From the IMG/VR virus record IMGVR_UViG_3300025141_000036, positions 32,001 to 96,000 of that record: a DNA stretch of 64,000 nucleotides; one strand, written 5' to 3'. Made by a program: the position numbers and the translations under genes. The notes beneath the pieces were generated by a model. That model was not told the DNA's origin, made no database searches, and was given only the letters and a program-made list of their open reading frames with translations. Positions 7,092 through 53,610 of this stretch are shown here, piece by piece (the first letter of the stretch is position 1; every line of letters starts with the position of its first letter). This DNA comes from a virus.

Positions 7092-7111
7092 AGATTGCCC
7101 TCTCTAAATGA

Positions 7112-7118
7112 TAAATAG
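7112..7118 (-). promoter_or_regulatory. Putative late promoter core CTATTTA
   Basis: In the intergenic gap ~20 nt upstream of the gp6-like ATG; recurs in about 10 gaps. Confidence 0.45.
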
Positions 7119-7133
7119 TTGGCTGATTAAAAG

Positions 7134-26517: not shown

Positions 26518-27127
26518 CCTTCCTTTTTAATAAACCCACAGCAATGTGAGTAATTTTAGAAATAGAATCTTCAAAATGAAAATTATTATTATTCTTCCCA
26601 GTTTGCCCCGGAAAAATAGAGTCTCCCCTAACAATTATCAACAAATCAGCTAAATCTCTTGCTTTGCAGCTTTCATTTCTTGTAATAACCACCACTTTCA
26701 TTCCAATTTCTTTTGCATATTCTGCTGCTTTAATAACGTTTTTTGAATTTCCTGAACCACTGATTCCGAAGAACACATCACCTGATGATCCTTGATATCT
26801 TAATTGCTCAACAAAAATGTTCTCATATCCCAAATCATTAGAGATGCCTGTTATTGTAGCTACACAATCACACAAATTCACACAATGAAACTTATTCCTA
26901 GGAGCGGATCTGTTTCCTTTGTCCTCAGAGACAAACGGATGCATATTTAAATCTACGACCAGATTGCCCACATAAGCCACATTCCCACCATTTCCACAAG
27001 CAAACACTTTCTTTTCTTTTTCATAAGCTTCAAAGATTATTTTTACAAAAGACTCGATTTCGGTTGATGAAATTGTCTGTATTACTCTTGATGATTCTTT
27101 TTTGTAAACTTCTATTAATTCTTGCAT
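26495..27127 (-). CDS. gmhA: Phosphoheptose isomerase (SIS domain)
   Basis: VFACGNGG, ISNDLGYENIFVEQL, GISGSGNSKNV. Confidence 0.8.
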   Translation of the reverse strand: MQELIEVYKKESSRVIQTISSTEIESFVKIIFEAYEKEKKVFACGNGGNVAYVGNLVVDLNMHPFVSEDKGNRSAPRNKFHCVNLCDCVATITGISNDLGYENIFVEQLRYQGSSGDVFFGISGSGNSKNVIKAAEYAKEIGMKVVVITRNESCKARDLADLLIIVRGDSIFPGQTGKNNNNFHFEDSISKITHIAVGLLKRKVANENIG

Positions 27128-28683: not shown

Positions 28684-28701
28684 TTAATTCTCGTTTTATA
28701 T

Positions 28702-28730
28702 ATTATAACACATTCTTCGTCCCCTGTCAA
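28702..28730 (-). promoter_or_regulatory. sigma70-type promoter TTGACA-N17-TATAAT
   Basis: Perfect consensus upstream of ATG 28683. Confidence 0.8.
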
Positions 28731-28737
28731 AAAAAAA

Positions 28738-29211
28738 TTAATTTTTATGCTCGATATCTATTTTTCCAGATTTTCTATTTGTATCATCTTGATATCTAAT
28801 GACATCATTAAGATGAGGAGTGGAAACCTCCAAAGCAGTATAGGATTCTCTAGCTATGACTCTATGTTTTCTATTGAGAGGGACTGTCCACCCTGATCCT
28901 GCTTTATAAATCTTGGATTCCATAACCCCTTCATCATTTTCCAAAAGAACCTCTGCTTCTCCTTCAATCACATAGTTTGCTTCAATCTTATATTCATGAG
29001 ATTGTAAACTACATCTATTACCTTTTTTCATATGAATCAGCTTAAAAGCATAAAACTCATTTAATTCCAACCATAGTTCATAGCCCCATGGCTTTACTAC
29101 TTTATAATCGCTTACTGATAGGTTATCCGGCTTGCTGTTATCAATCGTATCTTTGTACTCCTCTAGTGCTTGCTTTATAAACAAATCTTTAATGTGATCA
29201 AATTTTGACAT
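28738..29211 (-). CDS. Cupin (mannose-6-phosphate isomerase type II C-terminal-like)
   Basis: KPWGYE..CSLQSHEYKIE..HRV..LEVSTP. Confidence 0.8.
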   Translation of the reverse strand: MSKFDHIKDLFIKQALEEYKDTIDNSKPDNLSVSDYKVVKPWGYELWLELNEFYAFKLIHMKKGNRCSLQSHEYKIEANYVIEGEAEVLLENDEGVMESKIYKAGSGWTVPLNRKHRVIARESYTALEVSTPHLNDVIRYQDDTNRKSGKIDIEHKN

Positions 29212-29563
29212 CTTTAATTCCTTGGTTTCTTTTTAAATTTATTGCATATGCATAATCTTTATCCCCTGAGGGCTTTCTATCATTTATAATATATCTTTTT
29301 CCTCCGCCAATGCCCATAACTAATTGGTCATAGATAATGCCGGCTTTTGACAATTGTTTTTCTGTTTGCTTTCTCATACTCTCTCTACGACCAGTAGTGA
29401 GAATAATGTTGTAGCCTCGGCGGTCCCACTCTTCTAGTTTTTCTAGTGTTCCGTTTAAAATTTCCATTTTATTATCTTGTCGACAAGATAAAAAGGGTGA
29501 CTGATGTTTTACTAACGTGCCATCTATATCACAAAAAATAGTGGCTGGTCTCTTTTCATTCAT
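29198..29563 (-). CDS. HAD-family sugar-phosphate phosphatase
   Basis: FCDIDGTL, ILTTGR, YIINDRK. Confidence 0.8.
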   Translation of the reverse strand: MNEKRPATIFCDIDGTLVKHQSPFLSCRQDNKMEILNGTLEKLEEWDRRGYNIILTTGRRESMRKQTEKQLSKAGIIYDQLVMGIGGGKRYIINDRKPSGDKDYAYAINLKRNQGIKDVKI

Positions 29564-30681
29564 AATATAAACCTTGTACTTGGGTTAATGTTCTCCAAGA
29601 TATCTTTCTTTATCTCTTCTGTATACATTGCTGCCTTAAGAACAACAATGGGGTTAACAACATCTTTTAGAATCTGTGGAGACCGGACAAACAAGTTTGT
29701 TCCATAAAGTCTCTGGTTTATTTTCGCAGGGTCGTTATCCAATATGAAAGAAAAGTTTTCCTCTTTCAAACCAAACTTCAACAAAGATTGGGTAAAAATG
29801 TGAGCACCAAAAATAAATGTGTTACTCTTATTTTCCAGTTGGTTTTCAATTTTCTTCACTTCTGCATTGTAATAATTCATAAAATCATCCAAATAAGACG
29901 AATCTTGTTTATAAACCTTATCGGCTGCAACAGACGAAGATTTGATCGCTGAAACGAAAACACAGTGGTTGCTAAAGTCTTTTTCTTCTACAACTTCAAG
30001 GCCAGAGTAATGTAAAATTTCTCTTAACAACTCTTTTGTTAAACCATAGGTGTGTTCAAAATTCATCGCATTTGTGAAACCATCTTTCATCATCTCATCA
30101 ATTATGGGTGCCGAAATGAACATCATTTTTCCTTCTTCTAAAAGCTCTGTCATCACTTTAATCTCGTTCATAGGATCATAGAGGTGCTCTATAACATGAG
30201 AATGAATGATTGCGTCGGGTTTTTCTTTTACAGAATTCTTATCAAAAAATTGTTCTTTTAAAATAATCTTATCTGTTGGCTTATTACCATAACAACTCAG
30301 GTTAGTGTCATAAACCGTTATAGATTCAATCTTCTGGTTTTTCTCAAGGTGCTTAGCTAAAACTAGTTGTGCGCCACCAATCTCTACAAGATTACCTGAT
30401 GCACTAATATTGATGAAGTCTGCAAATTCTTTGTGGTGGCGATTCCAAATTTTACCAAAAGAACTGTTATGAGCATCTTTATATAAAATTTCCAACGGAA
30501 CTAATTTTGTTAATTGTGCTGTTTTACACTCAGAACATTTTGCAAAATTCAAATCTAGTGTCAAATCGGATTCTCTGTTTTGAGTTGTAGTTCCCATATA
30601 GATAGGAAAATCTTTTATAGAATAAGCATCTACTAAAGGAGACGAGCAATAAACACATTCGCTTCGCAGGACATATTTCAT
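29560..30681 (-). CDS. SAM-dependent (NDP-sugar C-)methyltransferase with N-terminal Zn site
   Basis: CVYC..CSEC..AQL; VEIGG; HVIEH; FEH; FILDNDPAK. Confidence 0.75.
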   Translation of the reverse strand: MKYVLRSECVYCSSPLVDAYSIKDFPIYMGTTTQNRESDLTLDLNFAKCSECKTAQLTKLVPLEILYKDAHNSSFGKIWNRHHKEFADFINISASGNLVEIGGAQLVLAKHLEKNQKIESITVYDTNLSCYGNKPTDKIILKEQFFDKNSVKEKPDAIIHSHVIEHLYDPMNEIKVMTELLEEGKMMFISAPIIDEMMKDGFTNAMNFEHTYGLTKELLREILHYSGLEVVEEKDFSNHCVFVSAIKSSSVAADKVYKQDSSYLDDFMNYYNAEVKKIENQLENKSNTFIFGAHIFTQSLLKFGLKEENFSFILDNDPAKINQRLYGTNLFVRSPQILKDVVNPIVVLKAAMYTEEIKKDILENINPSTRFIL

Positions 30682-31415
30682 TTATCGCTCCACACACAAA
30701 TTTTATTAATAGTTGGTTCATTTCGTAAATAACCGCGGGTCTTTCCTGCTTCTCCCAACAAATAATGATTAAGTGTTGATCCTATGTCGATGTAAGTATT
30801 TTGTGAATTAAACTCAAACAACTGATGGGCTAAAATGTTACCAAACGGTCCGGCACAAAAAAGGAACAAATTATCTTTTATTTCCTCTGTTGTTATGAAA
30901 TCTTTCACCTCCGATATTAATTCATTATTATCTACCCATGCATTCTTTCCAATCTGAAAATGTTTCGAGACATCAAACGGAAGACTATCCAAATTAGATG
31001 CCGAGTTTGAAACCAAAACCACCTCAAACTCTGAATAATGTGGAACCATCTTATCTAAATAATGCTTATGATTTCCATTAACAAAAAGATTGGCCCAAGT
31101 TAAATTTGTTAATTCTTGCCCCGATTGTTTTTTTAGCCAATTATGAACAGTTAACCCCCCAATACAACAAGGACATGAGATTCCTACGAAATAATTTTCA
31201 TTCTTAAATCTAAATGACTCTATCATTTGTTTTCGAAACTCTTGATTCTCTTTTGGATTAAACCAAAACTCACCATTATTAATTGGCTTATTTGATAGGA
31301 TGTGTAATTCTCCATCAGCATATTTAGAAAAAGAAAATGGCTCTTTGGTTTTTAACTTATCAATCAATATTTTTAAATCTTCCCTAAAACTTTTATTCTC
31401 TGTTTTAAATTTCAT
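30678..31415 (-). CDS. GT-D-fold (DUF1792-like) glycosyltransferase
   Basis: FSFSKYADGE..LFCAGP..IDIGS; start at ATG 31415. Confidence 0.65.
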   Translation of the reverse strand: MKFKTENKSFREDLKILIDKLKTKEPFSFSKYADGELHILSNKPINNGEFWFNPKENQEFRKQMIESFRFKNENYFVGISCPCCIGGLTVHNWLKKQSGQELTNLTWANLFVNGNHKHYLDKMVPHYSEFEVVLVSNSASNLDSLPFDVSKHFQIGKNAWVDNNELISEVKDFITTEEIKDNLFLFCAGPFGNILAHQLFEFNSQNTYIDIGSTLNHYLLGEAGKTRGYLRNEPTINKICVWSDK

Positions 31416-31417
31416 AA

Positions 31418-32197
31418 TTATTCTTCCTTCCATTTTGGATAAGGTTTATTACAGGCTTTCTTAAACTTGACCTTGAAGTCATCGGGCCATTCTTTATTGA
31501 TAACTCCATCTTTTGGCACCCTCGGCGGTAAATAAATATTTAATCTATTTTCTCTACAATATTTAAAAATTTGATATACCTTGTAAGAATCAGTCCCTTT
31601 GGAAATTCGAACATCCCATAGTTTGTTTTGCGATGGCTCACAATCTCCAAGCAACACCTCCCTTAATGCCTCAACAGTTAAGGAGTCAGCCTCTCGGACA
31701 AAACCCTGCTCGGTTGTATAGGGTGTGTATGTAAATTTTTTTGTTTTTAATATCTCGCCACTATCCACCCTATTTTCAATTCTCATGATCGAAACTCCCC
31801 ATTCGCAGGATTCCAACATTCTTCCCCAGACTAACGAGGCGCCGCCTTGAACATCTGGGAGTATCGCTCCATGGTTACCAATTACTTCGAATTTTGATGT
31901 GATTGATTTAGGAACTATCCTAGAATCACCTAAAGTTATAATCAAATCAATTTTGTTTCTCTCACAAAACTCTAGGCAATTTTGCCATTCGCTTGTTTTA
32001 TCTAGGACTATTTTATTTTCTTCACAAAAACTATCTAACTTAACAGAGTTCACTTTACTGTTTAGTTTATCATCAGGGAGACCAAAAACATATAGGATCT
32101 CGAACTTGCCTAGATCACTTATCATCTTCATACTCTCTAAAGTTAGTTTTGTGTTTCCGGTAATTGCTACCTTAATGACATGATTGTTTTGAACCAT
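31418..32197 (-). CDS. Formyltransferase (NDP-aminosugar N-formyltransferase-like)
   Basis: GNHGAILPDVQGGASLVW..GVS..VDSGEI. Confidence 0.75.
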   Translation of the reverse strand: MVQNNHVIKVAITGNTKLTLESMKMISDLGKFEILYVFGLPDDKLNSKVNSVKLDSFCEENKIVLDKTSEWQNCLEFCERNKIDLIITLGDSRIVPKSITSKFEVIGNHGAILPDVQGGASLVWGRMLESCEWGVSIMRIENRVDSGEILKTKKFTYTPYTTEQGFVREADSLTVEALREVLLGDCEPSQNKLWDVRISKGTDSYKVYQIFKYCRENRLNIYLPPRVPKDGVINKEWPDDFKVKFKKACNKPYPKWKEE

Positions 32198-32721
32198 CGT
32201 TTGGCGATCTCCTTATATCCTTCATGTGTAAAGTGGACTCCATCTATCAGGTGGGATTCTAAATCTGACATATCTGCTACTATAAAGTTCATTTCTTTCG
32301 ATAATTTTGCAATCACCCTATTGTATTTTACAACATATTCTCTATTGGACATATAGTATGGACTAAACTTTAGATCTGGGAGAGTCGCAACAATGGGCAT
32401 TTTACCATTAACTCTTATTGAATTGATTATTTGTTTTAAATTATCTTCATAAATTTCAAGGGGTGTTGGTTTCTTAGTATCGTTTGTACCAATCATAAGT
32501 AGAGAAATTTTTGCACCTGGATTGGCTTTAAGTTGATGCCATGATCTTCTTAATAAATCTGAGCTTGTTTCTCCGTTCACACCATAGTTGTGGCAAATAT
32601 AAAATTCCCCAGTTTCTTTTGATAGCATACTACCTAACTCAGTAGGGTAAGATCTACCATATCTATCTCTTGCTCCATAGGTGAGGGAATCCCCCAAACA
32701 CACTATTTCATTCCAAATCAT
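32167..32721 (-). CDS. SGNH/GDSL hydrolase or acetyltransferase
   Basis: CLGDSLT, GVNG, IGTND, DGVH; start at ATG 32721. Confidence 0.85.
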   Translation of the reverse strand: MIWNEIVCLGDSLTYGARDRYGRSYPTELGSMLSKETGEFYICHNYGVNGETSSDLLRRSWHQLKANPGAKISLLMIGTNDTKKPTPLEIYEDNLKQIINSIRVNGKMPIVATLPDLKFSPYYMSNREYVVKYNRVIAKLSKEMNFIVADMSDLESHLIDGVHFTHEGYKEIAKRWFKTIMSLR

Positions 32722-34288
32722 TTTTTCTCCTATAAATTGGCTTCCAGCCATTCATTATGGCATTCTTAACACACGCATCTCTTTGAGCATAAAACACTCC
32801 ATGGTTTCTCGCCCTAGATGTTGCCTTTTCATCTACTCCCAGTTTGTATCCGTCCAGAGAACTGTGCAGAGACAAGTCCTCGGCAGGATGTGGAGGGCAC
32901 AACGTTTTTATTCCACCATACTTCTGGGCGCAATATGAAAATTGAATATCTTCTCCATTATGCCAGGTAAATGGCTTCTCCATCCACAAATATTTAAGCC
33001 ATTCAGTTTCGAAAAACCACGCATGACCTCCTAAATCAACTTCTATCACTTCTTCGTTCTGTGTTGTCCATCCAACTAGTGTTCTACCAACATATTTATC
33101 ACTGGTTATACTTATGCCGTTGCCGACCAGGATGCCTCTATGATTTTCCATTGTTTTTAGACAATTTTCAAGCCACCGGGCTCCGGGAATGGTATCATCA
33201 TCAAACATAGCAATGTATTTACTATCGCTCAAAAGTGCACCAGCGAAGCGGCCATAAAATTTCCAATTGTAATCATTCCGAATAACTCGATCAACATTAA
33301 ATTGAGAAAAATCTATATTAGCATTATCTTCATGGTGATTAACCCAGATCCAAATATCTTTCACTGGGGTCGATTGGTTTCTTATTGCATTTATTTGTTT
33401 TTCCAAATATTCTGGTCTTCTATAGCAATTAAGAATAACTGTTATTGAATCGTCTCTCAGTAATTCTTCAAACGTGTTTACAGCATCAGAAACCTTGTTT
33501 CTAAGCGTTTCAATCAACTCAGGGCCCGATTGGTCAAACCAAGACTCAGAAGCTGCTCCGATAAGGTTTTTGCTCGTTAAAACCTTACACCCTAACATCT
33601 TAGCTTCAACCACAACACGAGATAATGTTTCTAGGACCTGAGGGATGAAAATAAAGTATTCATACTCGGCCATTTTTTGCAACAATTCTTTTTCCGGGAG
33701 AGGGCCAATTAATTCATAATCTAAATTTTTCTGCTTGCAATAAGAAACCGCTTGACTTGTTCCCTTAATTGGATTAGGAGAGTTTATTATGCAATATTTT
33801 CCATTCTTATTTTGAATATCAATCTCGGAAATAAAGTCAAATTTGTCCTTTGACCACAATGAACAACCAATGCTAATAACATTATTAATATTTAAATTTT
33901 GTTCCATTACTGTTTTACAAATCTCACTCAAAACAACAACGGCTTTTGCATTCCTATAAAACTCCGCATTGATCAACTGATCACGAGGAACCTTAAAGTT
34001 AGCAAAAGCCGCAGGGTTTCTGTTTTTAATGTATTTATGATCGTGTTCATAAATAATGTAATCTTTTAACATTATAATTTGCTTATGTCTTGCAGAAAGA
34101 GAAACAAAGTTGGAAACAATAAGCATTTCCGAATCAATAATAATCTCATCTGTGAGATCAGAACACTTAAGCTTTCTTACTTCAATTCCTTTAGAAACCA
34201 ACGAATTGATTAAAACAGAGTCATTAAGCTCTGCTCCGCCCGTTAAATCATCACTAAAAAAATCTGCAAGAAAAACTATTGGTTTCAT
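32708..34288 (-). CDS. Fused glycosyltransferase (GT-B + GT2/GT-A)
   Basis: GGAE..ETLSRVVVEAKMLGC (GT4-like) followed by VILNCYRRP..FDDDTIPG..GEDI. Confidence 0.75.
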   Translation of the reverse strand: MKPIVFLADFFSDDLTGGAELNDSVLINSLVSKGIEVRKLKCSDLTDEIIIDSEMLIVSNFVSLSARHKQIIMLKDYIIYEHDHKYIKNRNPAAFANFKVPRDQLINAEFYRNAKAVVVLSEICKTVMEQNLNINNVISIGCSLWSKDKFDFISEIDIQNKNGKYCIINSPNPIKGTSQAVSYCKQKNLDYELIGPLPEKELLQKMAEYEYFIFIPQVLETLSRVVVEAKMLGCKVLTSKNLIGAASESWFDQSGPELIETLRNKVSDAVNTFEELLRDDSITVILNCYRRPEYLEKQINAIRNQSTPVKDIWIWVNHHEDNANIDFSQFNVDRVIRNDYNWKFYGRFAGALLSDSKYIAMFDDDTIPGARWLENCLKTMENHRGILVGNGISITSDKYVGRTLVGWTTQNEEVIEVDLGGHAWFFETEWLKYLWMEKPFTWHNGEDIQFSYCAQKYGGIKTLCPPHPAEDLSLHSSLDGYKLGVDEKATSRARNHGVFYAQRDACVKNAIMNGWKPIYRRKNDLE

Positions 34289-35523
34289 ACTAAGTCAATC
34301 TCCGATAAAGCCTCTTGCCATTCCAACTCTTCACCGGTTGGGGCATAAATAGCATCGCAAAAACCTTTGTAAAGCTTTTCTTCATTAAAATTTTCATTAA
34401 TTAATGATTGAAGTTCTACTGCTGTTTCTTTGGCATTATCCCACTCCTTGAAGGTTTTTCTCAAAGTCATTTTGTAGGAACCTTGGGCTGCAAATGCCCA
34501 CATAGATTCCTTTTGAATAACTCCTTCCCAGACAGCTTCTTTTTGAACTGGTCTTAGGGAGTATTCCACTTTTTGATAATAGTCTTTCTTGTCATGAACC
34601 AAAAAGTCCAAATGACCTGACCAACCAACAGCAATGACCGGCAAACCTTCTCGAGCTGCTTCAAATAGTGGAAGACCGAAGCCTTCTCCATGAGCTATGT
34701 TGACAATCGCCTTCACTTTCGAATGAGAATATAATTCCGTCATTTGACCAGCAGACAAATCTCCATGAAGCAAATGAACTTTACATTTTCTATCAGGATA
34801 TCTAGCCAAAGCTTGACTTATAGCTTTTTCCGTCATTTCCAAATCTATTCTAGAATTACCTGCTGTATTGCATTTTATTATTAACCCGACCTCTTGGTCT
34901 ATAAACTCTTCTACCCACCAATTTATAGCATTTCCAAAGTTTTTTCTTGGGCTAATTTGAGAACACATCAGGAAATTGAAGTCACACGGTGGTTCAAAAC
35001 CGGGAATAGATTCCGCTTCTTCGCGCGGTGTTGTCTCCCAGACTACTTCTACAGGGGTTTCCAGGGTATAGGGAAACTTCTTACCCGTGGGGTCTTGGGC
35101 CTCGACTGTTGTATTTTCATAGGTGGTTTTCGCATGACTGGAGACTACTAAGATTTTGTCTACCTCCTCGTTTCCTTTTTGTAGCCACGATGGTGCCACT
35201 TTTGTAGTTTCAATCCCTGCTGTATAGCCAAAATTAACAGGACACAATTTCTGAAATTCATTAGGGATTGTGATTTGCAAACTCATATCTGGTTTCAATT
35301 GTTCCTGTTGGAGTAGAATTTGCGTATGTGCTATTCTCGAATCCATCCATTGACGAAATTCGTTGTCTTGCCAAATCCAACCAGTGTGACCCCATGGAAT
35401 TGGTTGAACATAAATTTCAAATAAGTCTTCACGAGACCTCAAGGCTCTTAGGGCAAATCGAGACTGTTCTCCGTAGCCAGACTGACTCAGACACGGTGCT
35501 CTTACAAAAATCTTTTTTCTCAT
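34285..35523 (-). CDS. GT4-family glycosyltransferase
   Basis: SGYG..RKN..GEGFGLPLFEAA. Confidence 0.85.
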   Translation of the reverse strand: MRKKIFVRAPCLSQSGYGEQSRFALRALRSREDLFEIYVQPIPWGHTGWIWQDNEFRQWMDSRIAHTQILLQQEQLKPDMSLQITIPNEFQKLCPVNFGYTAGIETTKVAPSWLQKGNEEVDKILVVSSHAKTTYENTTVEAQDPTGKKFPYTLETPVEVVWETTPREEAESIPGFEPPCDFNFLMCSQISPRKNFGNAINWWVEEFIDQEVGLIIKCNTAGNSRIDLEMTEKAISQALARYPDRKCKVHLLHGDLSAGQMTELYSHSKVKAIVNIAHGEGFGLPLFEAAREGLPVIAVGWSGHLDFLVHDKKDYYQKVEYSLRPVQKEAVWEGVIQKESMWAFAAQGSYKMTLRKTFKEWDNAKETAVELQSLINENFNEEKLYKGFCDAIYAPTGEELEWQEALSEIDLV

Positions 35524-36791
35524 GCGACCTCCTTAAAAATGATTCTATTCGCAGTTTTTCGAGTTTCCCAAGACCCTTCTTCTTTATGGATCTTAAGCAT
35601 CAACTCCACCCATTGGGTGTTAAAATTTTCAAAATTATAATTCTTTACAACGTGCTCTCTGCCTTTGGCGCCAAGCTTCTTTCTTCCTTCGGGCCCCAGG
35701 TCATACATGTTGCTCAGGGCTGATAAGACATGGGATTTACTAACCCTATCTTCATAAATATAAGGCACATCTTGGGATCCGATAACCGATTTTGATGTCG
35801 GAAAAATCGGGAAGCCAAATGTATCATCCGGGGAGATTACTTGCTCTTGTAAGCCGCCAGTTACTGTCGCGATAATGGGAACTCCACAAGAAAGAGACTC
35901 CAGAGTAGATAATCCAAACCCCTCTGCGTCTGATATATTAATTGTGGCATCAGCCATCATATAATAAAATGGCATTGTCTGCTTAGGAACCTTTTGAGTC
36001 GAGAAAACTATCTGCCCTTCTGTCATTCCTAAATGTTCTGCTATGTGGACCAGATCTTGCCCGTGAGCGTCCTTAGGGGCAGTGTGCATTACAAGCATTG
36101 CTTTATCATGCAAATCTCGCTCATCTAGCCATTCTTTCCACCACCATACAAGAGTTCCAGATTGTTTACGACGGGCGTTTCTATTATTCCAGAAAACGAC
36201 AAATTTCTCCCTATCCTTCTCATCGAAATTCTCTTCTCTGAGTTTTTTCTTTTCTTCGTCTGTAACTATTCGAAAAAGAGTGTTATCTACTGCATGTGGC
36301 AGATAAGTACAAGGGACGTCAGGAGCCACTTTACGAACTATGTCATCAGTTAATTTTGATATCGTCATGATGTGGTCATTCGACTCATAAAACTTCTTAT
36401 TAAACATAGGATAAGGATAGTTATCCCAAACGTGATAATAAACCAAGGGACAAAGGGGACGGATCTCGTTTTCCATTTTCCACAACCATCCCCAAAATCT
36501 AGGGTCTGTCATAATCCAAACAATATCTGGTTTCTCATTGCGAAGTACCGATCTCAGCATATCTTCGGTTCCATAGCCATCGACAGGGATAACTCTCCAA
36601 TCTTCTCCAAACTCTTCCACCTTTACGGGAGTATAATCATGATGTTTGATTGCACCCCCTAAAGACAAAATGGAAAACTTTCCACTCCTCAAGAGAGCTT
36701 CACAAACATATTTGGTTTGGGTTCCAACTCCTGATGGACTTAGGGGGTGATCCCCTAAGGTTAAAACTTTAATTTTCTTAGACATACGCAT
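35520..36791 (-). CDS. GT4-family glycosyltransferase
   Basis: NRNARRKQ..AEGFGLSTLESLSCGVP. Confidence 0.85.
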   Translation of the reverse strand: MRMSKKIKVLTLGDHPLSPSGVGTQTKYVCEALLRSGKFSILSLGGAIKHHDYTPVKVEEFGEDWRVIPVDGYGTEDMLRSVLRNEKPDIVWIMTDPRFWGWLWKMENEIRPLCPLVYYHVWDNYPYPMFNKKFYESNDHIMTISKLTDDIVRKVAPDVPCTYLPHAVDNTLFRIVTDEEKKKLREENFDEKDREKFVVFWNNRNARRKQSGTLVWWWKEWLDERDLHDKAMLVMHTAPKDAHGQDLVHIAEHLGMTEGQIVFSTQKVPKQTMPFYYMMADATINISDAEGFGLSTLESLSCGVPIIATVTGGLQEQVISPDDTFGFPIFPTSKSVIGSQDVPYIYEDRVSKSHVLSALSNMYDLGPEGRKKLGAKGREHVVKNYNFENFNTQWVELMLKIHKEEGSWETRKTANRIIFKEVA

Positions 36792-36811
36792 CCTTATGTT
36801 GTTTTACCTAT

Positions 36812-36840
36812 AATATAACACACACAAATTCACTTGTCAA
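36812..36840 (-). promoter_or_regulatory. sigma70-type promoter TTGACA-N17-TATATT
   Basis: Heads the glycosylation cluster. Confidence 0.75.
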
Positions 36841-36859
36841 GAAAAAAAGTTGACTTTTT

Positions 36860-37813
36860 TTATAAAGAGTCAAAATAAATCACGCCACTCACCACGGCTA
36901 CGGACAACCCTAAGCCCAACATAATTTTTAAAAAGTCCCCAACGAGCATTGGAAAAATTACACTTACCTCTTTGTCTTTATTAAAGGTGCGATAAACGGC
37001 CAATTCACGCCCAGCTAGCAACCCTACAAAGACCCAAGTGGTAGACATAGGGATCGCACTGTGGATCTTAAAATACCACAAAACTAGAGCGTAGAAAAGA
37101 TCTATTAGACAGGCAGATCTTATAAAACGAGTCCCGCTTTTGGATAGGACAATTTCTTGAATCTTTCCGCCTTTTGTGTAGAATAAATGAGCCAAGCCTG
37201 CTACAAGAATCCCAATCACCCCTAACATCATAGGGAGAGTGACTCCTTCTCGAGGAAGATAAGCAAAAACATTGGCAATATCATGAGACAGCCACATATA
37301 CCACAAAAAGCCCGTAGACAACCATTGTGCCACGGACCAAAATCTTTTGTGATCTTCTCGAACCTTTTGTTTCTCATCAAAGAAGCGATGCATCACCATC
37401 CAGATAGCGTAGGCCGAAATGGCTGCTAGACCATAGCCCATTGCTGATTTTATTATAATCTTCTCAAGCACGAGACCTGTCGAAAAGGCACTCAAGGTAA
37501 GAAGTGTAGTGGAAACAGGAACCCCAAGCCTGGTTAGACCAAGCAGAAGAACCGGTGCCGCTGCATGGTACCACTGGAATACTTCCGGGAGAGGAATCTT
37601 CTCCAATCTCCCAAAAGCAATATCTCCAGAGGCCCAGCCAGACAGTAGGGTTCCCGCCAGGATGCTGGACGCAAACGCCCACATCCAATACCACTTTACT
37701 TTTTTATTATTGGAACTTATAAATGTTCCAAGAGTTTGGGCACTATCGTTTCCAATAACTGAATAAGCTGCTAATAAAAAACCGATGGTGCCAAAAATCG
37801 CCGATAAAGACAC
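36860..37813 (-). CDS. PiT-like inorganic phosphate transporter-family membrane protein
   Basis: Multi-TM; GNDSAQTLGT, PVSTT, HDIAN, PMSTT motifs. Confidence 0.65.
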   Translation of the reverse strand: MSLSAIFGTIGFLLAAYSVIGNDSAQTLGTFISSNNKKVKWYWMWAFASSILAGTLLSGWASGDIAFGRLEKIPLPEVFQWYHAAAPVLLLGLTRLGVPVSTTLLTLSAFSTGLVLEKIIIKSAMGYGLAAISAYAIWMVMHRFFDEKQKVREDHKRFWSVAQWLSTGFLWYMWLSHDIANVFAYLPREGVTLPMMLGVIGILVAGLAHLFYTKGGKIQEIVLSKSGTRFIRSACLIDLFYALVLWYFKIHSAIPMSTTWVFVGLLAGRELAVYRTFNKDKEVSVIFPMLVGDFLKIMLGLGLSVAVVSGVIYFDSL

Positions 37814-37848
37814 TTTAACCTTCCTTTATCAATAATTAGTCATCAATT

Positions 37849-38622
37849 TTAAGGACAGTGTTCTGTCTTATTAAAGTCACATTTAGAACAGGACTTTCTA
37901 TTCTTAACAAAGTTAGCAGCCTTAATAGTTCGACATCCATCTGTCAATAGTTTAGTAGCGCTCTTAGTCTTTCGGGGACCAGAAGTCACACGAAAAATTT
38001 CAACTTTATTTTCCTTAGCAGTTCTCTTGAGAAGTCCAAAGTGTGTTTCCACAAGTTTGGGGTCAAGGTTGTGCTTCTCGCAGAAAAACTTCTTGTATAA
38101 GGTTAATTGATAAGTCACTAACTTTTCCGATCGTTTCTTGGCATCCCAGCCCCAGCTGCATGATTTCCAATCAAGAATGTGATATTTACCGTCTTCTGTT
38201 TTTATAACAAGATCAATGAAGCCCTTGAGATTCCACTCATAAGTAAGCTCATCTATAGGTTCATAAAGCATCTCTTCTGTTGAGAACACCTCGTATTCTC
38301 CAAAATGTTCTTTAAGTTGCGGAAAGACAGAAGGGGAAATTTCTTTCCCCTGCTGTCGCATTTGTGTGATCATTTTGTTGTCTGGTTTATCATCCAGTTT
38401 CTTTAGTTCACACAAAAATGCTAAATCAAAATGTTCGTCATAATCGATTGGCTCCAATTCTTCTTTTGCAATGTGTTCGCAAACGCTATGAATAGCAGTA
38501 CCAAAAGCAGTAAAGACATTTCCGGTGAAGCCTTTTAATTTATCAATGTATTGCAATTTATGTTTAAAGGGGCAATCCGCCCATGTTTTCAATTCTGAAA
38601 ATGAAATGTGTTGTTTTGTCAT
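37849..38622 (-). CDS. PD-(D/E)XK exonuclease (RecB/Cas4-like, Fe-S cysteines)
   Basis: SFSEL..CP..FGTAIH..E..GFIDL..DWKS..QLTLY..CSKCDF..CP. Confidence 0.85.
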   Translation of the reverse strand: MTKQHISFSELKTWADCPFKHKLQYIDKLKGFTGNVFTAFGTAIHSVCEHIAKEELEPIDYDEHFDLAFLCELKKLDDKPDNKMITQMRQQGKEISPSVFPQLKEHFGEYEVFSTEEMLYEPIDELTYEWNLKGFIDLVIKTEDGKYHILDWKSCSWGWDAKKRSEKLVTYQLTLYKKFFCEKHNLDPKLVETHFGLLKRTAKENKVEIFRVTSGPRKTKSATKLLTDGCRTIKAANFVKNRKSCSKCDFNKTEHCP

Positions 38623-39760: not shown

Positions 39761-41100
39761 AATAATTTAGCGGCGGCAGTTGCCAGCTTTGATCGCTCTC
39801 CTTTCCTAAATGTAATATGGCCGGCAAGTTCACTTCCTTTAAACTTCTCAACAGCATACGTCAAACCATTGCTTGTTTCATTCGTGTAGACATTATCTAT
39901 TTGTTCGATGTCGCCGGTTAAAACAATTTTTGTGTTCTCGCCAATCCGAGTGATAATCGTCTTGACTTCATGCGCCGTTAAATTTTGGGCCTCATCTATA
40001 ATTACAAACGCATTAGAAATTGACCGACCTCTTATGTAAGTTAATGCTTCAACTTCAATTTTTCCTTTCTCTACGTAGGCTTCGAGCATAGTGCGATCAT
40101 CTCCCATAAGGTGACGAATATTGTCTTGGATTGGCTTCAACCAAGGAAGCATTTTTTCTTCCATCGTTCCCGGAAGGAAACCAATGTCCTTTCCTAAAGG
40201 CTGTACAGGGCGTGAAATAATGATTCGTCGGTATTGGTCACCCTTTCCTCCCAGACCTTGTTCCAAAGCTGCTGCAATGGCCATTAAGGTCTTCCCAGAG
40301 CCTGCTTTACCTATGAGAGAAACCAGAGGAATCTCATCATCGAACAAAAGGTCAAATGCGAAGGATTGCTCTTTGTTCCGTGGAAGCACTCCCCACATCA
40401 ATTCGTTTTTAAAATCTCGGATATGTTGTAAAGGTTTAGCATAATCTGAGAATCTCGATAGCGCTGTTTTCTTTTCGTTGCTCGAAGACACAAGCATGAC
40501 AAATTCGTTTGGGTGTAATATTATCTTTTGTTCGAGCACTACATCTTCATCCAAATAAACATCATCTCCGAGATAAAATTGGTTGACCAACTCTTCGTCT
40601 ACAAGAAGTTTTGTAAACCCCTCGTATATCTTGTCTGTGTTGTCAACAACTTGAGAATTGCTGTAATCTTCAGTTAATAGTGCTAGTGAATCAGCTATCA
40701 CTCTCATATTGATATCACGAGAAACCACAATTGTTTTTCTTTTCGGTGTTTCCTTTTTTATTGTCAGTGCAGTGGCCAAAATCAAATGATCCGACATCTT
40801 ATGAGTAAGGTCCTTAGGAAGCTCGTTAAGGGCTATTTCAGACGCTTTAACAACACGGAGCACCCCTAACCCCTTGGCGATGCGAACACCTCGAGAAAGG
40901 CTGCCAGCGGCTCTTAGAGTGTCAAAAGTTCTTATTGATTGTCTTGCGTGATGACCAACTGAGTCTTGTCGTTTTTTATGAAGATCTATTTCCTCCAACA
41001 CCTTAAGGGGAATAATAATATCGTTATTTTGGAATTTATAAATGCAATTAGAATCAGAAAGAAAGACGCTTGTGTCTATAATAAAATTCTTTTTAGCCAT
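39757..41100 (-). CDS. phoH: PIN-PhoH family ATPase
   Basis: N-terminal PIN (IDTSVF..SRDINMR); GKAGSGKT, GFLPG, IRGRS, IIDEAQN, GDIEQID. Confidence 0.9.
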   Translation of the reverse strand: MAKKNFIIDTSVFLSDSNCIYKFQNNDIIIPLKVLEEIDLHKKRQDSVGHHARQSIRTFDTLRAAGSLSRGVRIAKGLGVLRVVKASEIALNELPKDLTHKMSDHLILATALTIKKETPKRKTIVVSRDINMRVIADSLALLTEDYSNSQVVDNTDKIYEGFTKLLVDEELVNQFYLGDDVYLDEDVVLEQKIILHPNEFVMLVSSSNEKKTALSRFSDYAKPLQHIRDFKNELMWGVLPRNKEQSFAFDLLFDDEIPLVSLIGKAGSGKTLMAIAAALEQGLGGKGDQYRRIIISRPVQPLGKDIGFLPGTMEEKMLPWLKPIQDNIRHLMGDDRTMLEAYVEKGKIEVEALTYIRGRSISNAFVIIDEAQNLTAHEVKTIITRIGENTKIVLTGDIEQIDNVYTNETSNGLTYAVEKFKGSELAGHITFRKGERSKLATAAAKLL

Positions 41101-43955
41101 TACATCTCCTTGAGTAACTGTTCTATTATTGGCTTTAACTTCCGAATAATCTGTTCCCTTCGACCCATCCTTTTATTTATTCTACTTCTTGACCGGGAGG
41201 CTGCTCTGCTTGTAACCTCCTCCTCATCTTCTGATGATTGAGTTAAGTGATTGACCAAAAGATTGATTACTGGGTGCTCTTCTCTAACTAGGGCCAGAAA
41301 TGCAACCCTATGATTATCCTTCATATTTTTCATTATTTGTTGCATTTTTTTCTTGCCGGTGGGGCCTCTAAGGTGGAGGCGCTTGGGGAAGTTATCAACT
41401 ATTTGTTTTTGTTTCTTTTTTCTTCTTGCATAAGGAGATACACTTTCCAATACCGGAGATGTCTCCTTGTTATAGAGTGTTATAAAGTTTTTGATCGCAT
41501 CTCGATATTCCTCTTCCAGATTTTCCCAGTGCTCTGACTTAAAAAGAGGGGATACATATTTTTCCACCTCATCTTTGACAACAACTTCCAACTCTTCCTC
41601 AGTCTCTGGGAGGTTTTCCTCTGGAGTTTCTTCTCGAACTTTTTTCATAATCCTGTCAATCATACTTTCTTCTGATTCTTCATCGCTCGGGCCTTCTTCC
41701 GCAAACCTTCTGGCTATTTCTGCCACATCGGGAAAGTCTGGTGAGTCTGCGTCACTATCTACTGATGGCTGCGGACCCTCTTCGTCACTCAAAGACTCAT
41801 CGCTGGGATCGAGAAGTGTTTTATCTGCTTTCCTTGGAACTCTCATGGGAACCCCAAAACTGTCTTCGATCGCCTTGGATAAACTTCGCATTCTTAATGC
41901 TAAGCGCTTTATATTCGAAGACGAAATTCCATCATCCTTGACAGTCATATAGAGGTCCCTCAAGACTTGCCCAAATAAACCTATTTGTTTGTCTAGTTCT
42001 TTTATGGCTGTTGCTAGAGTGACAACTTCACCTTGAGAATTAATATAAGATTGAGGAAAAAACTTTATAATTTCCTTAGCCAGATCTTTCATTTCTTCGG
42101 CGGCGGCGATTGCCTTTCTTTGTACATCTCGTGAAATCTGTTTAACTTCGGGCTCTGCTACTTCGGGCTCTGCTTCTTCGGCTTCGTTGGTCTCTTCCAA
42201 CGTCAATGAGGGTTTAAGAGAATTCACATAGATACTGCCCATTTTATTATAAATTTCCCTTATAAATTTAACCTTTTCCTCTCGAGACCCTTGTTGTTCC
42301 TGAAGTGGTTCTAGTTCTGATCCCTGTTCTGCTATTATTTTTGCCAAAAAGGCTATCAATAAACCACATTGCTCTTGAACTTGACCGAGCACGCCATAAT
42401 CTCCACCTTGGCCTGTTCCCGTTAACATTCTTTCGAGACTTGTGCCATCATATCCGGCGCTTGCGCTTTGACGAAAACCAAATCGCTGATATGCATCGGC
42501 TATTCCTCTTGCGTCTTTTAGTAAATCAGCAAAATCTCCCACTTCTCTTTTTAGTGTGATTTTATCCTTTTTTGACCATGGAATATAATTTGTTTCAGTT
42601 TCTTCTTCTTTTTCTTCATTAAAGGCTCGGCGCTGGGTTGAGCCGTCTTCGTCGGCTGGACCTCGGATAATCTCGTTAAGATTATCAATCAAGCCATAAA
42701 GCATAGATGCTTGTGTCTGCAAAAATAACTGTCCCATAAAGGATGCTGTATTAGGGGTTTGGCCAAAAAATTCGTCCATACTTTGAATTTTTGACTCATC
42801 TATCTCTTGTTGTTGAACAATTTTATTGTCGGTGAAATCTTTCGTAACCGTCTCTTCATCCACTTCAGAGGTTTCTATTGGTGAAGGGCTTTCTGGGTCT
42901 ATCTCTGCTTCTGGTTCTTTTCTATTATATTCATTTTTAAACCACTCTAGCGCTTTACAGTATTGTGGGTGTTCCTCGGTATCGCAGTCTTCAGTCATCT
43001 TCTTGACAAAGTTTTCTCTCATTTCGGCATTTCCATCTAGAAACAATTCTGGATGGAAACCATAAGGGTTACTTTCCTCCGATGTAGCTGCAGCGTGCAT
43101 CAGATAAATCAGGGGGTTGGCGAATTCGGGGTCTCTCATCTCATGATCGAAGTAAGGGTTGTTTTGTGGGAGTTCCAATGGCAATTGACTTACCATCTCT
43201 AGTTTAGCGTCGACTGAGCCTTTTTCGTCTGACGAAAAATATTTATTCATGAAAGCCTTCATACCTATCTTCTTTATTTCGGTGACCCCTGCTTCTATGA
43301 GTTTTTGCTGCCACTGATCAAAGGCACTATAGTCTTCGTCCGTGTAAGGGGCTTCATCTTTGCCAGTGGAGTCGGTATCGGGTTCTTTCGGGGAAGCTGA
43401 AGGAGGATGTGTTTTATCAAATGTTTGTTTTAGGATTTCTTTTTGTTCATCCGACAGGTCAAAGTCCGGATTTTTTTTAACATTGCCTAAGATGCGCTGG
43501 TATGACTTAGGATCGTTGTTGATAGATTTTATGAAACTTGCAATTTGCTCATCTTCGGCGGGAGGCAATCCTGTTTTCACTGGGCTCTGGGAATCCCCTA
43601 GGGAATTAAGTTGGGCCTCGACTGCATTATTAAGAACCTTGAGTCCTTCTTCTTCTTCACCTAAAGCTTTTATAGCACTTGTTAGCCACCTTTTGTACTG
43701 TTTGGATTCGGGGCTTATTAATTTTATTATTTCTTCGGGCTTTCTGTTTGCAGCAAGCGCTCTTGTGATATAATTTCTCACTTTTGCGGCTATGTTGCCT
43801 TTCGGGGTTGCCGCTCCTTCACCCAATTCGTCTTCCACCATTATTTCTTCGACAATCAATCGATTGACGATGGATGATTCGGCTAATTTTTGTTTGAGAA
43901 TCTCTTGGATCAATGGGTGTTTAAAAACGGCGGTGGCTAGTTTTTTATTATTCAT
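41100..43955 (-). CDS. Large acidic hypothetical protein (951 aa), probable internal virion protein
   Basis: Acidic low-complexity linkers; terminal LIVEEI and LKPIIEQLLKE helices. Confidence 0.55.
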   Translation of the reverse strand: MNNKKLATAVFKHPLIQEILKQKLAESSIVNRLIVEEIMVEDELGEGAATPKGNIAAKVRNYITRALAANRKPEEIIKLISPESKQYKRWLTSAIKALGEEEEGLKVLNNAVEAQLNSLGDSQSPVKTGLPPAEDEQIASFIKSINNDPKSYQRILGNVKKNPDFDLSDEQKEILKQTFDKTHPPSASPKEPDTDSTGKDEAPYTDEDYSAFDQWQQKLIEAGVTEIKKIGMKAFMNKYFSSDEKGSVDAKLEMVSQLPLELPQNNPYFDHEMRDPEFANPLIYLMHAAATSEESNPYGFHPELFLDGNAEMRENFVKKMTEDCDTEEHPQYCKALEWFKNEYNRKEPEAEIDPESPSPIETSEVDEETVTKDFTDNKIVQQQEIDESKIQSMDEFFGQTPNTASFMGQLFLQTQASMLYGLIDNLNEIIRGPADEDGSTQRRAFNEEKEEETETNYIPWSKKDKITLKREVGDFADLLKDARGIADAYQRFGFRQSASAGYDGTSLERMLTGTGQGGDYGVLGQVQEQCGLLIAFLAKIIAEQGSELEPLQEQQGSREEKVKFIREIYNKMGSIYVNSLKPSLTLEETNEAEEAEPEVAEPEVKQISRDVQRKAIAAAEEMKDLAKEIIKFFPQSYINSQGEVVTLATAIKELDKQIGLFGQVLRDLYMTVKDDGISSSNIKRLALRMRSLSKAIEDSFGVPMRVPRKADKTLLDPSDESLSDEEGPQPSVDSDADSPDFPDVAEIARRFAEEGPSDEESEESMIDRIMKKVREETPEENLPETEEELEVVVKDEVEKYVSPLFKSEHWENLEEEYRDAIKNFITLYNKETSPVLESVSPYARRKKKQKQIVDNFPKRLHLRGPTGKKKMQQIMKNMKDNHRVAFLALVREEHPVINLLVNHLTQSSEDEEEVTSRAASRSRSRINKRMGRREQIIRKLKPIIEQLLKEM

Positions 43956-44134
43956 TATTTGTCCTCCCTTACCAAAGCTATATATTGTCTTACAACTGCT
44001 TGTTGTTCAGAGGGCAATGACGATAAGATCTTCTCTACATTATCTTCGAGAGATTGAGAATCCAATTCCTCTTCATTTACACGAGACAGTTCTTCTTTTA
44101 TTATTTGCTTAAGCCTTTGTCTAGATACTTTCAT
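43955..44134 (-). CDS. Small protein (59 aa) with MKVSRQRLKQIIKEEL leader
   Basis: Manual translation; fills the gap with TAATG overlaps on both sides. Confidence 0.7.
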   Translation of the reverse strand: MKVSRQRLKQIIKEELSRVNEEELDSQSLEDNVEKILSSLPSEQQAVVRQYIALVREDK

Positions 44135-44364
44135 TATTTAATCTCCGTCACTGAATTAGATATTTCTGGGTTGAAATCTGTTCTTAATTTAATGAGTGGG
44201 TTAAATGATGCTCTTTTTCTATCTAACAAAAGAGCTCCTTGTGGTTTTACCAACTGGCCTGTTACATCAACCCCTTCAAAGTCTATCTCTGTTCTACTCT
44301 TGTATTTGACATCACGGTCAACGTCCTGTGCAAATACTAGAAATACTAAAAACAATAAAAACAT
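44134..44364 (-). CDS. cglF: Adventurous gliding-motility protein CglF/GltF homologue (secreted)
   Basis: Signal peptide ..VFA-QD, then RTEIDFEGVDVTGQLVKPQGALLLDRKRASFNPLIKLRTDFNPEI, matching the recalled CglF pattern (IDF.DV.VEGEL.KPEG....RK...F..LI..R.NF..E); GAGGTG SD before ATG 44364. Confidence 0.75.
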   Translation of the reverse strand: MFLLFLVFLVFAQDVDRDVKYKSRTEIDFEGVDVTGQLVKPQGALLLDRKRASFNPLIKLRTDFNPEISNSVTEIK

Positions 44365-44407
44365 AATATTCCACCTCGCAGTAAATAGATTCAAAAAGAT
44401 TAATGAG

Positions 44408-44653
44408 TTAATGTTCTACGGGTTTAATTCCCATCGAATTCATTTTTACTAAATATTCGAAAAAAGATTTAAGACTTTCATCTTTTGATAATTGGAACCC
44501 TACAGAACCTACTGCTGCCACTTCATCTATAGGGATCCCTGCGTCCCCGGCGGCTTGGCACCAATACAAAATTCCTTTCATTATTTCCATTATTGCTGGG
44601 TCATTTTCTGCTTTTTGCAAGAAGGACTCGAGATTTTTATCATTTAGCTGCAT
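44408..44653 (-). CDS. Hypothetical protein (81 aa)
   Basis: Coupled ORF. Confidence 0.55.
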   Translation of the reverse strand: MQLNDKNLESFLQKAENDPAIMEIMKGILYWCQAAGDAGIPIDEVAAVGSVGFQLSKDESLKSFFEYLVKMNSMGIKPVEH

Positions 44654-53573: not shown

Positions 53574-53610
53574 GAAGACGTACCTCACAATAAATAGTAG
53601 AGGAACTAGG

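What the first reader, a model, noticed from the sequence alone, without database searches (positions are those of the whole stretch)
44134..44364. Phage-encoded homologue of the myxobacterial gliding-motility protein CglF/GltF
The secreted 76-aa protein closely matches the CglF core as I recall it (IDF..V.V.G.L.KP.G.....RK...F..LI..R.(N/D)F..E...S). CglF is an envelope component of the Agl-Glt gliding apparatus of Myxococcota and related predators. A viral copy preceded by the CTATTTA motif could modulate host motility or predation, or occlude outer-membrane Glt components used as receptor (superinfection exclusion). It is also the best clue to the host in this window.
Basis: partly seen in the sequence, partly recalled or inferred. 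Interest (0 to 1): 0.75.

Follow-up and report, generated by a model that had tools for sequence, protein, structure and literature searches.

The report
Phage copy of gliding-machine linker GltF
An uncultured marine T4-like phage carries a well-preserved, exported copy of GltF, the small periplasmic linker of the myxobacterial gliding machine, which points to aquatic Myxococcota as hosts and to the phage placing its own part in that machine.

Summary
Window 44134-44364 (-) is a real 76-aa gene with a Shine-Dalgarno site and a hydrophobic N-terminal leader. Its family is under strong purifying selection (omega about 0.07; 0.04 in the mature core).

It matches NCBIfam CglF (NF033764) at E=1.3e-12, below the 90-bit naming cut-off. 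Its 58-residue core is 81-84.5% identical to small secreted proteins of aquatic Myxococcota. Every cellular locus I found lies among other glt genes, and the locus checked with family models reads gltC-gltD-gltE-gltF-gltG-cglE. It is therefore a viral gltF.

The record is a 112-kb piece of a distant T4-like myovirus (GC 40%) and holds no other glt gene. A syntenic 187-kb viral contig and many marine contigs carry the same gene. So do unrelated viral contigs.

The predicted shape is extended with one C-terminal helix, as in the published GltF model. Both published docking segments, for GltG and GltC, are kept.

Viral copies often lack a Glu that no cellular copy in this clade replaces by a non-acidic residue (34/48 against 0/100). 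That hints at re-tuning rather than simple replacement, but independent contrasts are few. What the copy does to the host is untested.

This scan has already noted the same thing on other DNA (92 notes, at least 60 genomes). I found no paper that describes it.

The parts
44134..44364 (-). gltF-like gene, 76 codons plus stop
   Evidence: ORF and translation. NF033764 E=1.3e-12. Family omega 0.066.
44329..44364 (-). Codons 1-12: minimal signal-peptide-like leader MFLLFLVFLVFA, with predicted cleavage before Q13
   Evidence: Read from the sequence. All 17 family members keep a K/R-free hydrophobic leader ending A/G-Q. Cellular relatives have longer leaders with K/R ending AFA|QD. Export is inferred, not tested.
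44137..44328 (-). Predicted mature peptide, residues 13-76 (64 aa)
   Evidence: The core, residues 19-76, is 81-84.5% identical to cellular GltF and has omega 0.039.
44248..44301 (-). Residues 22-39 (KSRTEIDFEGVDVTGQLV): counterpart of the GltF strand that the published model pairs with the TonB-like C-terminal domain of GltG. It contains Q37.
   Evidence: Mapped by counting from the C-terminus of the published model (strand 94-111 of 147, PMC11761067), using the gap-free alignments. This is inference.
44254..44256 (-). Codon 37 (Gln)
   Evidence: E in 99 and D in 1 of 100 distinct cellular sequences of this clade. Non-acidic in 34 of 48 viral-context sequences.
44140..44184 (-). Residues 61-75: C-terminal helix, counterpart of the GltF helix that the published model places in a GltC groove
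   Evidence: AlphaFold2 gives a helix at 65-75, block pLDDT 78-86. The published helix is 133-147 of 147.
44371..44377 (-). Shine-Dalgarno site GAGGTGG, 6 nt before the ATG
   Evidence: Read from the sequence.
44382..44388 (-). CTATTTA motif, a candidate phage promoter element
   Evidence: Position. Strand bias and intergenic enrichment (p=1.4e-4), and shared with the baseplate-wedge gene start at 7091.
44408..44653 (-). Upstream 81-aa gene, always next to the gltF-like gene in this phage family
   Evidence: Present in the syntenic loci L082 and L094-L108. No family match. Absent beside gltF-like genes of other viral contigs.
43955..44134 (-). Downstream 59-aa gene with an MK.S.Q.LKQIIKEEL leader
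   Evidence: The leader recurs on small genes near the terminase of the same record. It is not part of the GltF function.

Best explanation
The gene is a gltF that a phage lineage took from an aquatic member of Myxococcota and has kept under strong selection.

Shown here: it is a homologue of GltF. Its closest cellular relatives are the gltF genes of glt clusters. It keeps an N-terminal export-type leader, the conserved core and the C-terminal helix. It is the only glt gene in the record.

Inferred: after infection, possibly together with the structural genes, the 76-aa precursor is exported by the Sec pathway and cut after Ala12. The largely unfolded 64-residue peptide then takes the place of host GltF in the trans-envelope Glt machine. 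Its strand segment (residues 22-39) would pair with the TonB-like C-terminal domain of GltG, and its C-terminal helix would sit in GltC.

My lean, which is the weakest step, is that the viral copy does not simply top up the host protein. I think it re-tunes or uncouples the link between the outer-membrane adhesion complex and the inner-membrane Agl motor. An adaptor made in excess can saturate each partner separately. Many viral copies, this one included, have also lost a Glu that cellular copies of this clade keep. The likely gains for the phage are a stop to gliding or predation movement, a saving of proton-motive force, or altered surface exposure of Glt outer-membrane proteins.
For: Homology: NF033764 gives E=1.3e-12. 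510 representative clusters match at E<=1e-3. The core is 81-84.5% identical to cellular proteins.

Orthology of relatives: in MAG locus L068 the order is gltC, gltD-like, gltE, gltF-like, gltG, cglE by NCBIfam. All 80 genome loci have glt neighbours.

Selection: omega is 0.066 overall and 0.039 in the core, with synonymous sites saturated. The protein stays at 84% identity although the DNA has drifted to 40% GC.

Architecture: AlphaFold2 gives an extended chain with only a leader helix and a C-terminal helix at 65-75. The published model of GltF has the same layout and names GltG and GltC as docking partners (PMC11761067).

Single subunit only: no other glt homologue is found in the 112-kb record.

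Spread in viruses: a syntenic 187-kb viral contig and 16 metagenome loci of the same family carry it, as do 11 other IMG/VR contigs with unrelated neighbourhoods.

Lean towards re-tuning: position 37 is acidic in 100/100 distinct cellular sequences and non-acidic in 34/48 viral-context ones. Position 68 is Met in 99/100 cellular sequences and Ile in about half of the viral ones. CTATTTA is shared with the baseplate-wedge gene start, which suggests late-type expression.
Against: Nothing here measures function, export or binding, and no complex prediction could be run.

The very high conservation fits a working replacement subunit just as well. 7 of 13 distinct family sequences still carry Glu37.

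Myxococcus-type CglF has D or S at that position, so the Glu is a feature of this clade, not of the whole family.

Only 3 well-supported independent virus/cell contrasts exist. One origin of all viral copies is not rejected (AU p=0.61), so the substitutions may be few events.

The leader has no basic residue, so efficient export is not assured.

The promoter reading of CTATTTA is an inference from position alone.

The host is unproven. The phage is 40% GC, while most cellular relatives are 52-73% GC.
Confidence: 0.42

Rival explanations
1. Maintenance gene, in the manner of cyanophage psbA. GltF is a short, unfolded and probably short-lived periplasmic linker. Once host transcription stops it runs out first, and the phage supplies a working copy so that gliding and contact-dependent feeding continue to fuel replication.
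For: The core has omega 0.039 and is 81-84.5% identical to host-type GltF. Both docking segments are kept. About half of this phage family keeps Glu37. GltF-mCherry was partly processed during fractionation (PMC3169522), which fits a labile protein. Marine T4-like phages are known to carry copies of high-turnover host proteins (my own knowledge).
Against: Cellular copies of this clade are never non-acidic at position 37, yet most viral copies are. A plain replacement should keep it. A late-type regulatory motif fits sustained supply poorly. The turnover of GltF has not been measured.
Confidence: 0.3
2. Exclusion or progeny protection. The phage uses an outer-membrane Glt component (CglB or GltA/B/H/K) as its receptor. 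The viral GltF changes the assembly or surface exposure of that component, so infected cells and their debris no longer adsorb phage.
For: Phages are known to block the envelope machines that they use as receptors, such as T5 Llp on FhuA and the Pseudomonas phage proteins Tip and Aqs1 on type IV pili (my own knowledge). The published model has GltF docking on GltC, which sits under the outer-membrane porin trio.
Against: GltF is described as periplasmic, so it cannot mask the outer face directly. The receptor of this phage is unknown. No data here bear on adsorption.
Confidence: 0.12
3. The module targets something other than the gliding machine. The GltF core is a portable docking peptide for TonB-like (AgmX/PglI-type) C-terminal domains. 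The phage may use it on a paralogous machine (Nfs-type or another Glt-like set), or to tap a proton-driven motor for its own ends, such as envelope disruption at lysis.
For: The same core is embedded in large multidomain proteins, including VIT-VWA proteins. Many Myxococcota genomes carry 2-3 copies of the family. Group A glt genes, gltF among them, are sometimes present in several copies in these lineages (PMC3169522).
Against: Every close cellular relative found lies among glt genes, usually next to gltE and/or gltG. No lysis genes were identified next to the phage gene.
Confidence: 0.12
4. A passenger gene or chance ORF with no role.
For: It is small, has no PHROG or Pfam family, and has no match in 50,697 GenBank phage records.
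Against: Omega is 0.066 with saturated synonymous sites. Position is conserved across a large phage family. 1259 clusters are found at 90% identity.
Confidence: 0.02

Closest known systems
GltF = CglF of Myxococcus xanthus (MXAN_4868; NCBIfam NF033764; Luciano et al. 2011, PMC3169522; structural model in PMC11761067)
   Same: Both are small secreted proteins with the same core motif (YK..TE.DFE....G.L.KP.G....R....F.PLI.LR..F..E...S). Both have an extended chain with a C-terminal helix. The profile match is significant.
   Different: Identity to Myxococcus-type sequences is only 35-44%. The score of 47.6 bits is under the 90-bit equivalog cut-off. The gene is carried by a phage without any other glt gene. 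The leader is shorter and lacks a basic residue. Position 37 is Gln.
GltF orthologues in glt clusters of uncultured aquatic Myxococcota (for example loci L068, L109, L002)
   Same: The mature core is 81-84.5% identical and the same length, with no indels. L109 comes from a 41.6% GC marine contig, close to the phage's 40%.
   Different: The cellular copies lie among glt genes, usually next to gltE and/or gltG, and carry classical leaders with K/R. Position 37 is always acidic (99 Glu, 1 Asp) and position 68 is Met in 99 of 100.
Phage copies of host machine subunits kept to sustain the host, such as cyanophage psbA/D1 (my own knowledge)
   Same: A marine T4-like phage carries a host-like subunit under strong purifying selection.
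   Different: GltF is a structural linker of a motility machine, not a metabolic enzyme or reaction-centre protein. Whether it supports or disturbs the machine is unknown.
Phage proteins that switch off a surface-motility machine: Tip and Aqs1 of Pseudomonas phages against type IV pili, and T5 Llp against FhuA (my own knowledge)
   Same: A small phage protein would act on an envelope machine, with possible exclusion benefits.
   Different: Those proteins are unrelated to the subunits they block. Here the phage protein is itself a copy of a subunit.

Membership tests
GltF/CglF family (NCBIfam NF033764) | Significant similarity to the family profile over its conserved core | tested here: met
   E=1.3e-12, 47.6 bits, residues 13-75 on profile positions 26-88 of 88. 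The same place is found in the whole record.
GltF/CglF family (NCBIfam NF033764) | Score at or above NCBI's equivalog cut-off (90 bits), meaning the same protein as M. xanthus CglF | tested here: not met
   47.6 bits. The cut-off is narrow. The positional gltF of MAG locus L068 scores 58.2 bits, and only 3 of 401 sampled genomes of the phylum pass. I therefore file it in the wider GltF homologous family, not as an equivalog of the Myxococcus protein.
GltF/CglF family | Small (about 85-90 aa) protein with a type I signal peptide | tested here: inconclusive
   It is 76 aa, with a hydrophobic leader and a V-x-A|Q site read from the sequence and kept in all 17 family members. There is no basic n-region, no predictor was available, and export is untested.
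GltF/CglF family | Mostly unfolded chain with a C-terminal helix (published model) | tested here: met
   AlphaFold2 with 120 sequences gives mean pLDDT 77, pTM 0.21 and helices only at 3-8 and 65-75. Compare PMC11761067.
GltF/CglF family | Gene lies in the G1 cluster between gltE and gltG | tested here: not met
   The phage gene stands alone, and tblastn finds no other glt homologue in the 112-kb record. This feature describes cellular loci. The nearest cellular relatives do meet it.
GltF/CglF family | Needed for gliding and recruited to focal-adhesion clusters | not testable with these tools
   Needs genetics and microscopy in a host (PMC3169522 for M. xanthus).
T4-like myoviruses (host of the gene) | T4-type large terminase, gp6-type baseplate wedge, gp46-like nuclease | tested here: met
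   phrog_2 terminase, phrog_6 wedge and phrog_77 SbcC-like nuclease. The nearest cultured terminases are from Flavobacterium phage immuto (46%) and Microcystis phage Mel-JY01 (45%). The major capsid and sheath proteins were not examined.

The most novel reading that the evidence does not exclude
Phages of aquatic Myxococcota carry a deliberately altered GltF. This 'poisoned linker' would still dock on GltG and GltC but, having lost the clade-invariant Glu37, would break force transmission. One 64-residue peptide would then switch off the host's gliding and predation machine, or hand its proton-driven motor to the phage. This would be host take-over by subunit mimicry of a motility machine. It would also assign a host phylum to a globally abundant group of marine T4-like phages.
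Probability: 0.2. Interest if true: 0.8.

Novelty: new variant of a known kind. Interest (0 to 1): 0.62.

Why it matters
GltF is one of the least understood parts of the Agl-Glt gliding machine. A natural set of viral variants, some with and some without Glu37, gives ready-made probes for what the linker does.

For marine virology, the gene gives a testable host assignment for a large family of uncultured T4-like phages seen throughout Tara and other ocean data. The candidate hosts are small-genome aquatic Myxococcota, possibly a low-GC lineage.

It would also add a structural subunit of a motility machine to the list of host genes that phages carry. None of the papers that my full-text searches returned describes a phage-borne GltF/CglF, and no GenBank phage record holds one.

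Tried and rejected
1. A conserved partner gene. The roughly 950-aa proteins that follow gltF-like genes in this phage, L087 and L091 looked like a shared pair, but they are unrelated.

2. Multiple independent captures. The quick tree suggested at least four virus/cell switches. The AU test does not reject a single viral clade (p=0.61), so I do not claim multiple captures.

3. Convergent loss of Glu37 as a statistical result. Raw counts are striking, but only 3 well-supported independent contrasts exist. I keep it as a hint.

4. Whole-window enrichment of CTATTTA. It is not enriched. Only its strand and position are non-random.

5. A sigma-70 promoter or terminator at the gene. Nothing convincing lies on the gene strand.

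6. The host from the terminase. The nearest cultured relatives infect Flavobacterium and Microcystis at 45-46% identity, which is too distant to use.

7. This record has none, only tRNA-Leu(TAA).

8. CRISPR-type short exact matches to four low-GC Myxococcota genomes in window 30-50 kb. Nothing significant was found.

9. The GC mismatch as an argument against Myxococcota hosts. It is weakened by low-GC glt clusters (L109 at 41.6%; L174 and L180-L182 at 43-46%). Marine T4-like cyanophages are also known to be about 20 GC points below their hosts (my own knowledge).

Contexts came from the search for related loci and the genome search instead.

11. The first alignment (A1) was too diverse for the genome scan, so I repeated the scan with A2.

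Full report
**The gene**

The minus-strand ORF 44134..44364 encodes 76 residues. A GAGGTGG Shine-Dalgarno site lies 6 nt before the ATG. The alternative upstream TTG start is not conserved: in the relative L082 the open frame reaches only two codons further up. The N-terminus is Met, ten hydrophobic residues and Ala12, followed by Gln-Asp. Cellular relatives carry a classical leader with K/R that ends AFA|QD. All 17 full-length members of this phage family keep the short leader without K/R. I could run no signal-peptide predictor, so export is an inference.

**Homology**

NCBIfam NF033764 (adventurous gliding motility protein CglF) matches at E=1.3e-12 and 47.6 bits, covering profile positions 26-88 of 88. 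Pfam and PHROGs give nothing. The curated cut-off is 90 bits, but that cut-off is narrow:
- Only 3 of 401 sampled genomes of the phylum reach it.
- Those Myxococcus-type sequences are 35-44% identical to the phage protein.
- An exhaustive search found 510 representative clusters at E<=1e-3.
- The word-indexed search found 1259 clusters at 90% identity. The best 120 listed are 75-100% identical, nearly all 76 aa long, and several carry Tara Oceans gene records.

**Cellular relatives are true gltF genes**

A scan of one genome per species returned 80 loci, mostly titled Myxococcota or Deltaproteobacteria MAGs, with GC of 52-73%. In L068 the genes are, in order, gltC, a gltD-like TPR protein, gltE, the small gene, gltG and cglE, as judged by NCBIfam. 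This is the G1-type arrangement described for M. xanthus (PMC3169522). tblastn with those proteins found glt neighbours at all 80 loci and at many metagenome loci. The L068 GltF itself scores only 58 bits on NF033764. The phage protein's sub-threshold score therefore reflects lineage distance, not a different family. The family profile was found in 143 of 201 sampled genomes of that phylum, often in 2-3 copies.

**How close the phage copy is**

Over the 58-residue core (residues 19-76, no indels) the phage protein is 81-84.5% identical to cellular GltF. That is as close as it is to other members of its own phage family. Within the family, omega is 0.066 overall, 0.039 in the core, 0.16 in the leader and 0.55 in the 5-residue linker. 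Synonymous sites are saturated. The gene is plainly functional.

**The phage**

The window is bases 32001-96000 of a 112,401-bp IMG/VR record that CheckV rates 62% complete. Its GC is 40%. In the window every ORF over 160 aa lies on the minus strand. The record has a T4-type large terminase, a gp6-type baseplate wedge, an SbcC-like nuclease, a primase and PhoH. The nearest cultured terminases are only 45-46% identical, from Flavobacterium phage immuto and Microcystis phage Mel-JY01. Neither the gene nor the 10-kb region matches any of 50,697 GenBank phage records. The record holds no other glt homologue, one tRNA-Leu and no tmRNA.

A 187-kb viral contig (L082) is collinear with window 39.7-50.3 kb and carries the gene in the same place. 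Sixteen metagenome loci share the neighbourhood. Eleven further IMG/VR contigs (GC 33-56%) and about thirty other metagenome contigs carry a gltF-like gene with no glt neighbour found and no relation to this phage.

**Host**

All cellular relatives found are in one phylum, so Myxococcota is the best host guess. The GC gap is smaller than it first looks:
- Contig L109 (GC 41.6%, a JGI metagenome contig) has gltE, gltF and gltG in order, and its GltF core is 84.5% identical to the phage's.
- By GltE, its nearest genomes are four MAGs of 4.3-5.3 Mb whose glt loci are 43-46% GC.
- In the quick tree the phage family joins L109 (SH-aLRT 84, not decisive).
- DNA-level similarity to those genomes was seen for gltF. 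It was also seen for a glycosyltransferase block, on a 4.5-kb, 40% GC contig binned with one of them. That contig could be a mis-binned phage.

None of this proves the host.

**How many captures**

The free tree needs several virus/cell switches. A tree that holds all 48 viral-context sequences together is not rejected (AU p=0.61). With 58 columns the number of captures cannot be settled.

**Shape and docking**

AlphaFold2 with 120 sequences gives an extended chain (mean pLDDT 77, pTM 0.21). The only helices are at 3-8 (the leader) and 65-75. The published model of the M. xanthus machine describes GltF as largely disordered. In that model a strand (94-111 of 147) pairs with the TonB-like C-terminal domain of GltG, and a C-terminal helix (133-147) sits in a groove of GltC, bridging to GltD (PMC11761067). 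Counting back from the C-terminus through the gap-free alignments, these segments correspond to phage residues 22-39 and 61-75. Both lie in the most conserved parts of the protein.

**What differs in viral copies**

Column counts on distinct sequences show the following:
- Position 37 is Glu in 99 and Asp in 1 of 100 cellular sequences.
- In this phage family it is Gln in 6 of 13, including the window.
- In 28 of 35 other viral-context sequences it is Gln, Val, Ala, Ile, Thr or another non-acidic residue.
- Position 68 is Met in 99 of 100 cellular sequences and Ile in about half of the viral ones.

Residue 37 lies in the segment mapped to the GltG-pairing strand. Three caveats apply. Myxococcus-type CglF has Asp or Ser there. 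Only three well-supported independent contrasts exist. The viral copies may share ancestry.

**Regulation**

No sigma-70-like promoter or terminator flanks the gene on its strand. Clear TTGACA-N17-TATAAT-like promoters precede other genes (28683, 36791, 39287). CTATTTA is strongly strand-biased (24 against 3) and enriched in intergenic DNA (8 of 24 in 6.9% of the bases, p=1.4e-4). Five copies lie 17-26 nt before a start codon. Those starts belong to the gltF-like gene, the baseplate-wedge gene, and genes starting at window 53573 and at record positions 17982 and 14665. This suggests a phage-specific, perhaps late, promoter class. That is inference only.

**Reading**

I am confident that this is a viral gltF that acts through the host Glt machine. 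I am not confident about the sign of its effect. I lean slightly towards re-tuning or uncoupling, because of the adaptor-excess argument, the loss of Glu37 and the late-type motif. The main rival is plain maintenance, which is favoured by the extreme conservation and by the half of the family that keeps Glu37. Indirect exclusion and action on a paralogous machine remain open.

**Prior knowledge**

The papers that mention GltF or CglF did not describe a phage copy. A 2026 preprint that surveys 790 myxophages lists metabolic and envelope genes but not gltF. Earlier notes of this scan report the same kind of gene on at least 60 other genomes. They are unchecked AI notes and were not used as evidence.

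Noticed in passing
Proteins P0148, P0156, P0170, P0232 and others (not in the window): The GltF core motif also occurs as an internal module in large multidomain proteins. Several of them have VIT and von Willebrand A domains. This suggests it is a portable docking peptide, notable because the Glt adhesins CglB and CglD are VWA proteins.
   Followed up: partly
window 43955-44134 (-), and record positions about 2591-7373 (outside the window): The 59-aa gene downstream of gltF begins MKVSRQRLKQIIKEEL. Similar leaders head several small genes near the terminase.
   Followed up: partly
window 7112-7118, 44382-44388, 53591-53597; record starts 17982 and 14665: CTATTTA(T/C) sits 17-26 nt before start codons, is strongly strand-biased and is enriched in intergenic DNA. 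It is a candidate phage-specific promoter class shared with the baseplate-wedge gene.
   Followed up: partly
upstream of window starts 28683, 36791 and 39287, and of many small genes at record positions 96-111 kb: Clear TTGACA-N17-TATAAT-like promoters are present. In the micro-gene array they recur with a conserved GATAGAATATAGTATAACC element.
   Followed up: no
window 32708-38622 (-); locus L194: A glycosyltransferase block (526, 412, 423 and 257 aa) is collinear at 40-55% identity with a 4.5-kb, 40% GC contig binned in a low-GC Myxococcota MAG. That contig is either a mis-binned related phage or a host glycan cluster.
   Followed up: partly
window 24000-32000: GC drops to 34-35% against about 40% for the record, in a run of mid-sized genes upstream of the glycosyltransferases. 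This may be an acquired island.
   Followed up: no
record positions 11920-12004 (outside the window): The record holds a single tRNA-Leu(TAA) and no tmRNA.
   Followed up: yes
window 41100-43955 (-): A 951-aa, very acidic protein has no family match. It is not related to the similar-sized proteins next to gltF-like genes in other viral contigs.
   Followed up: partly
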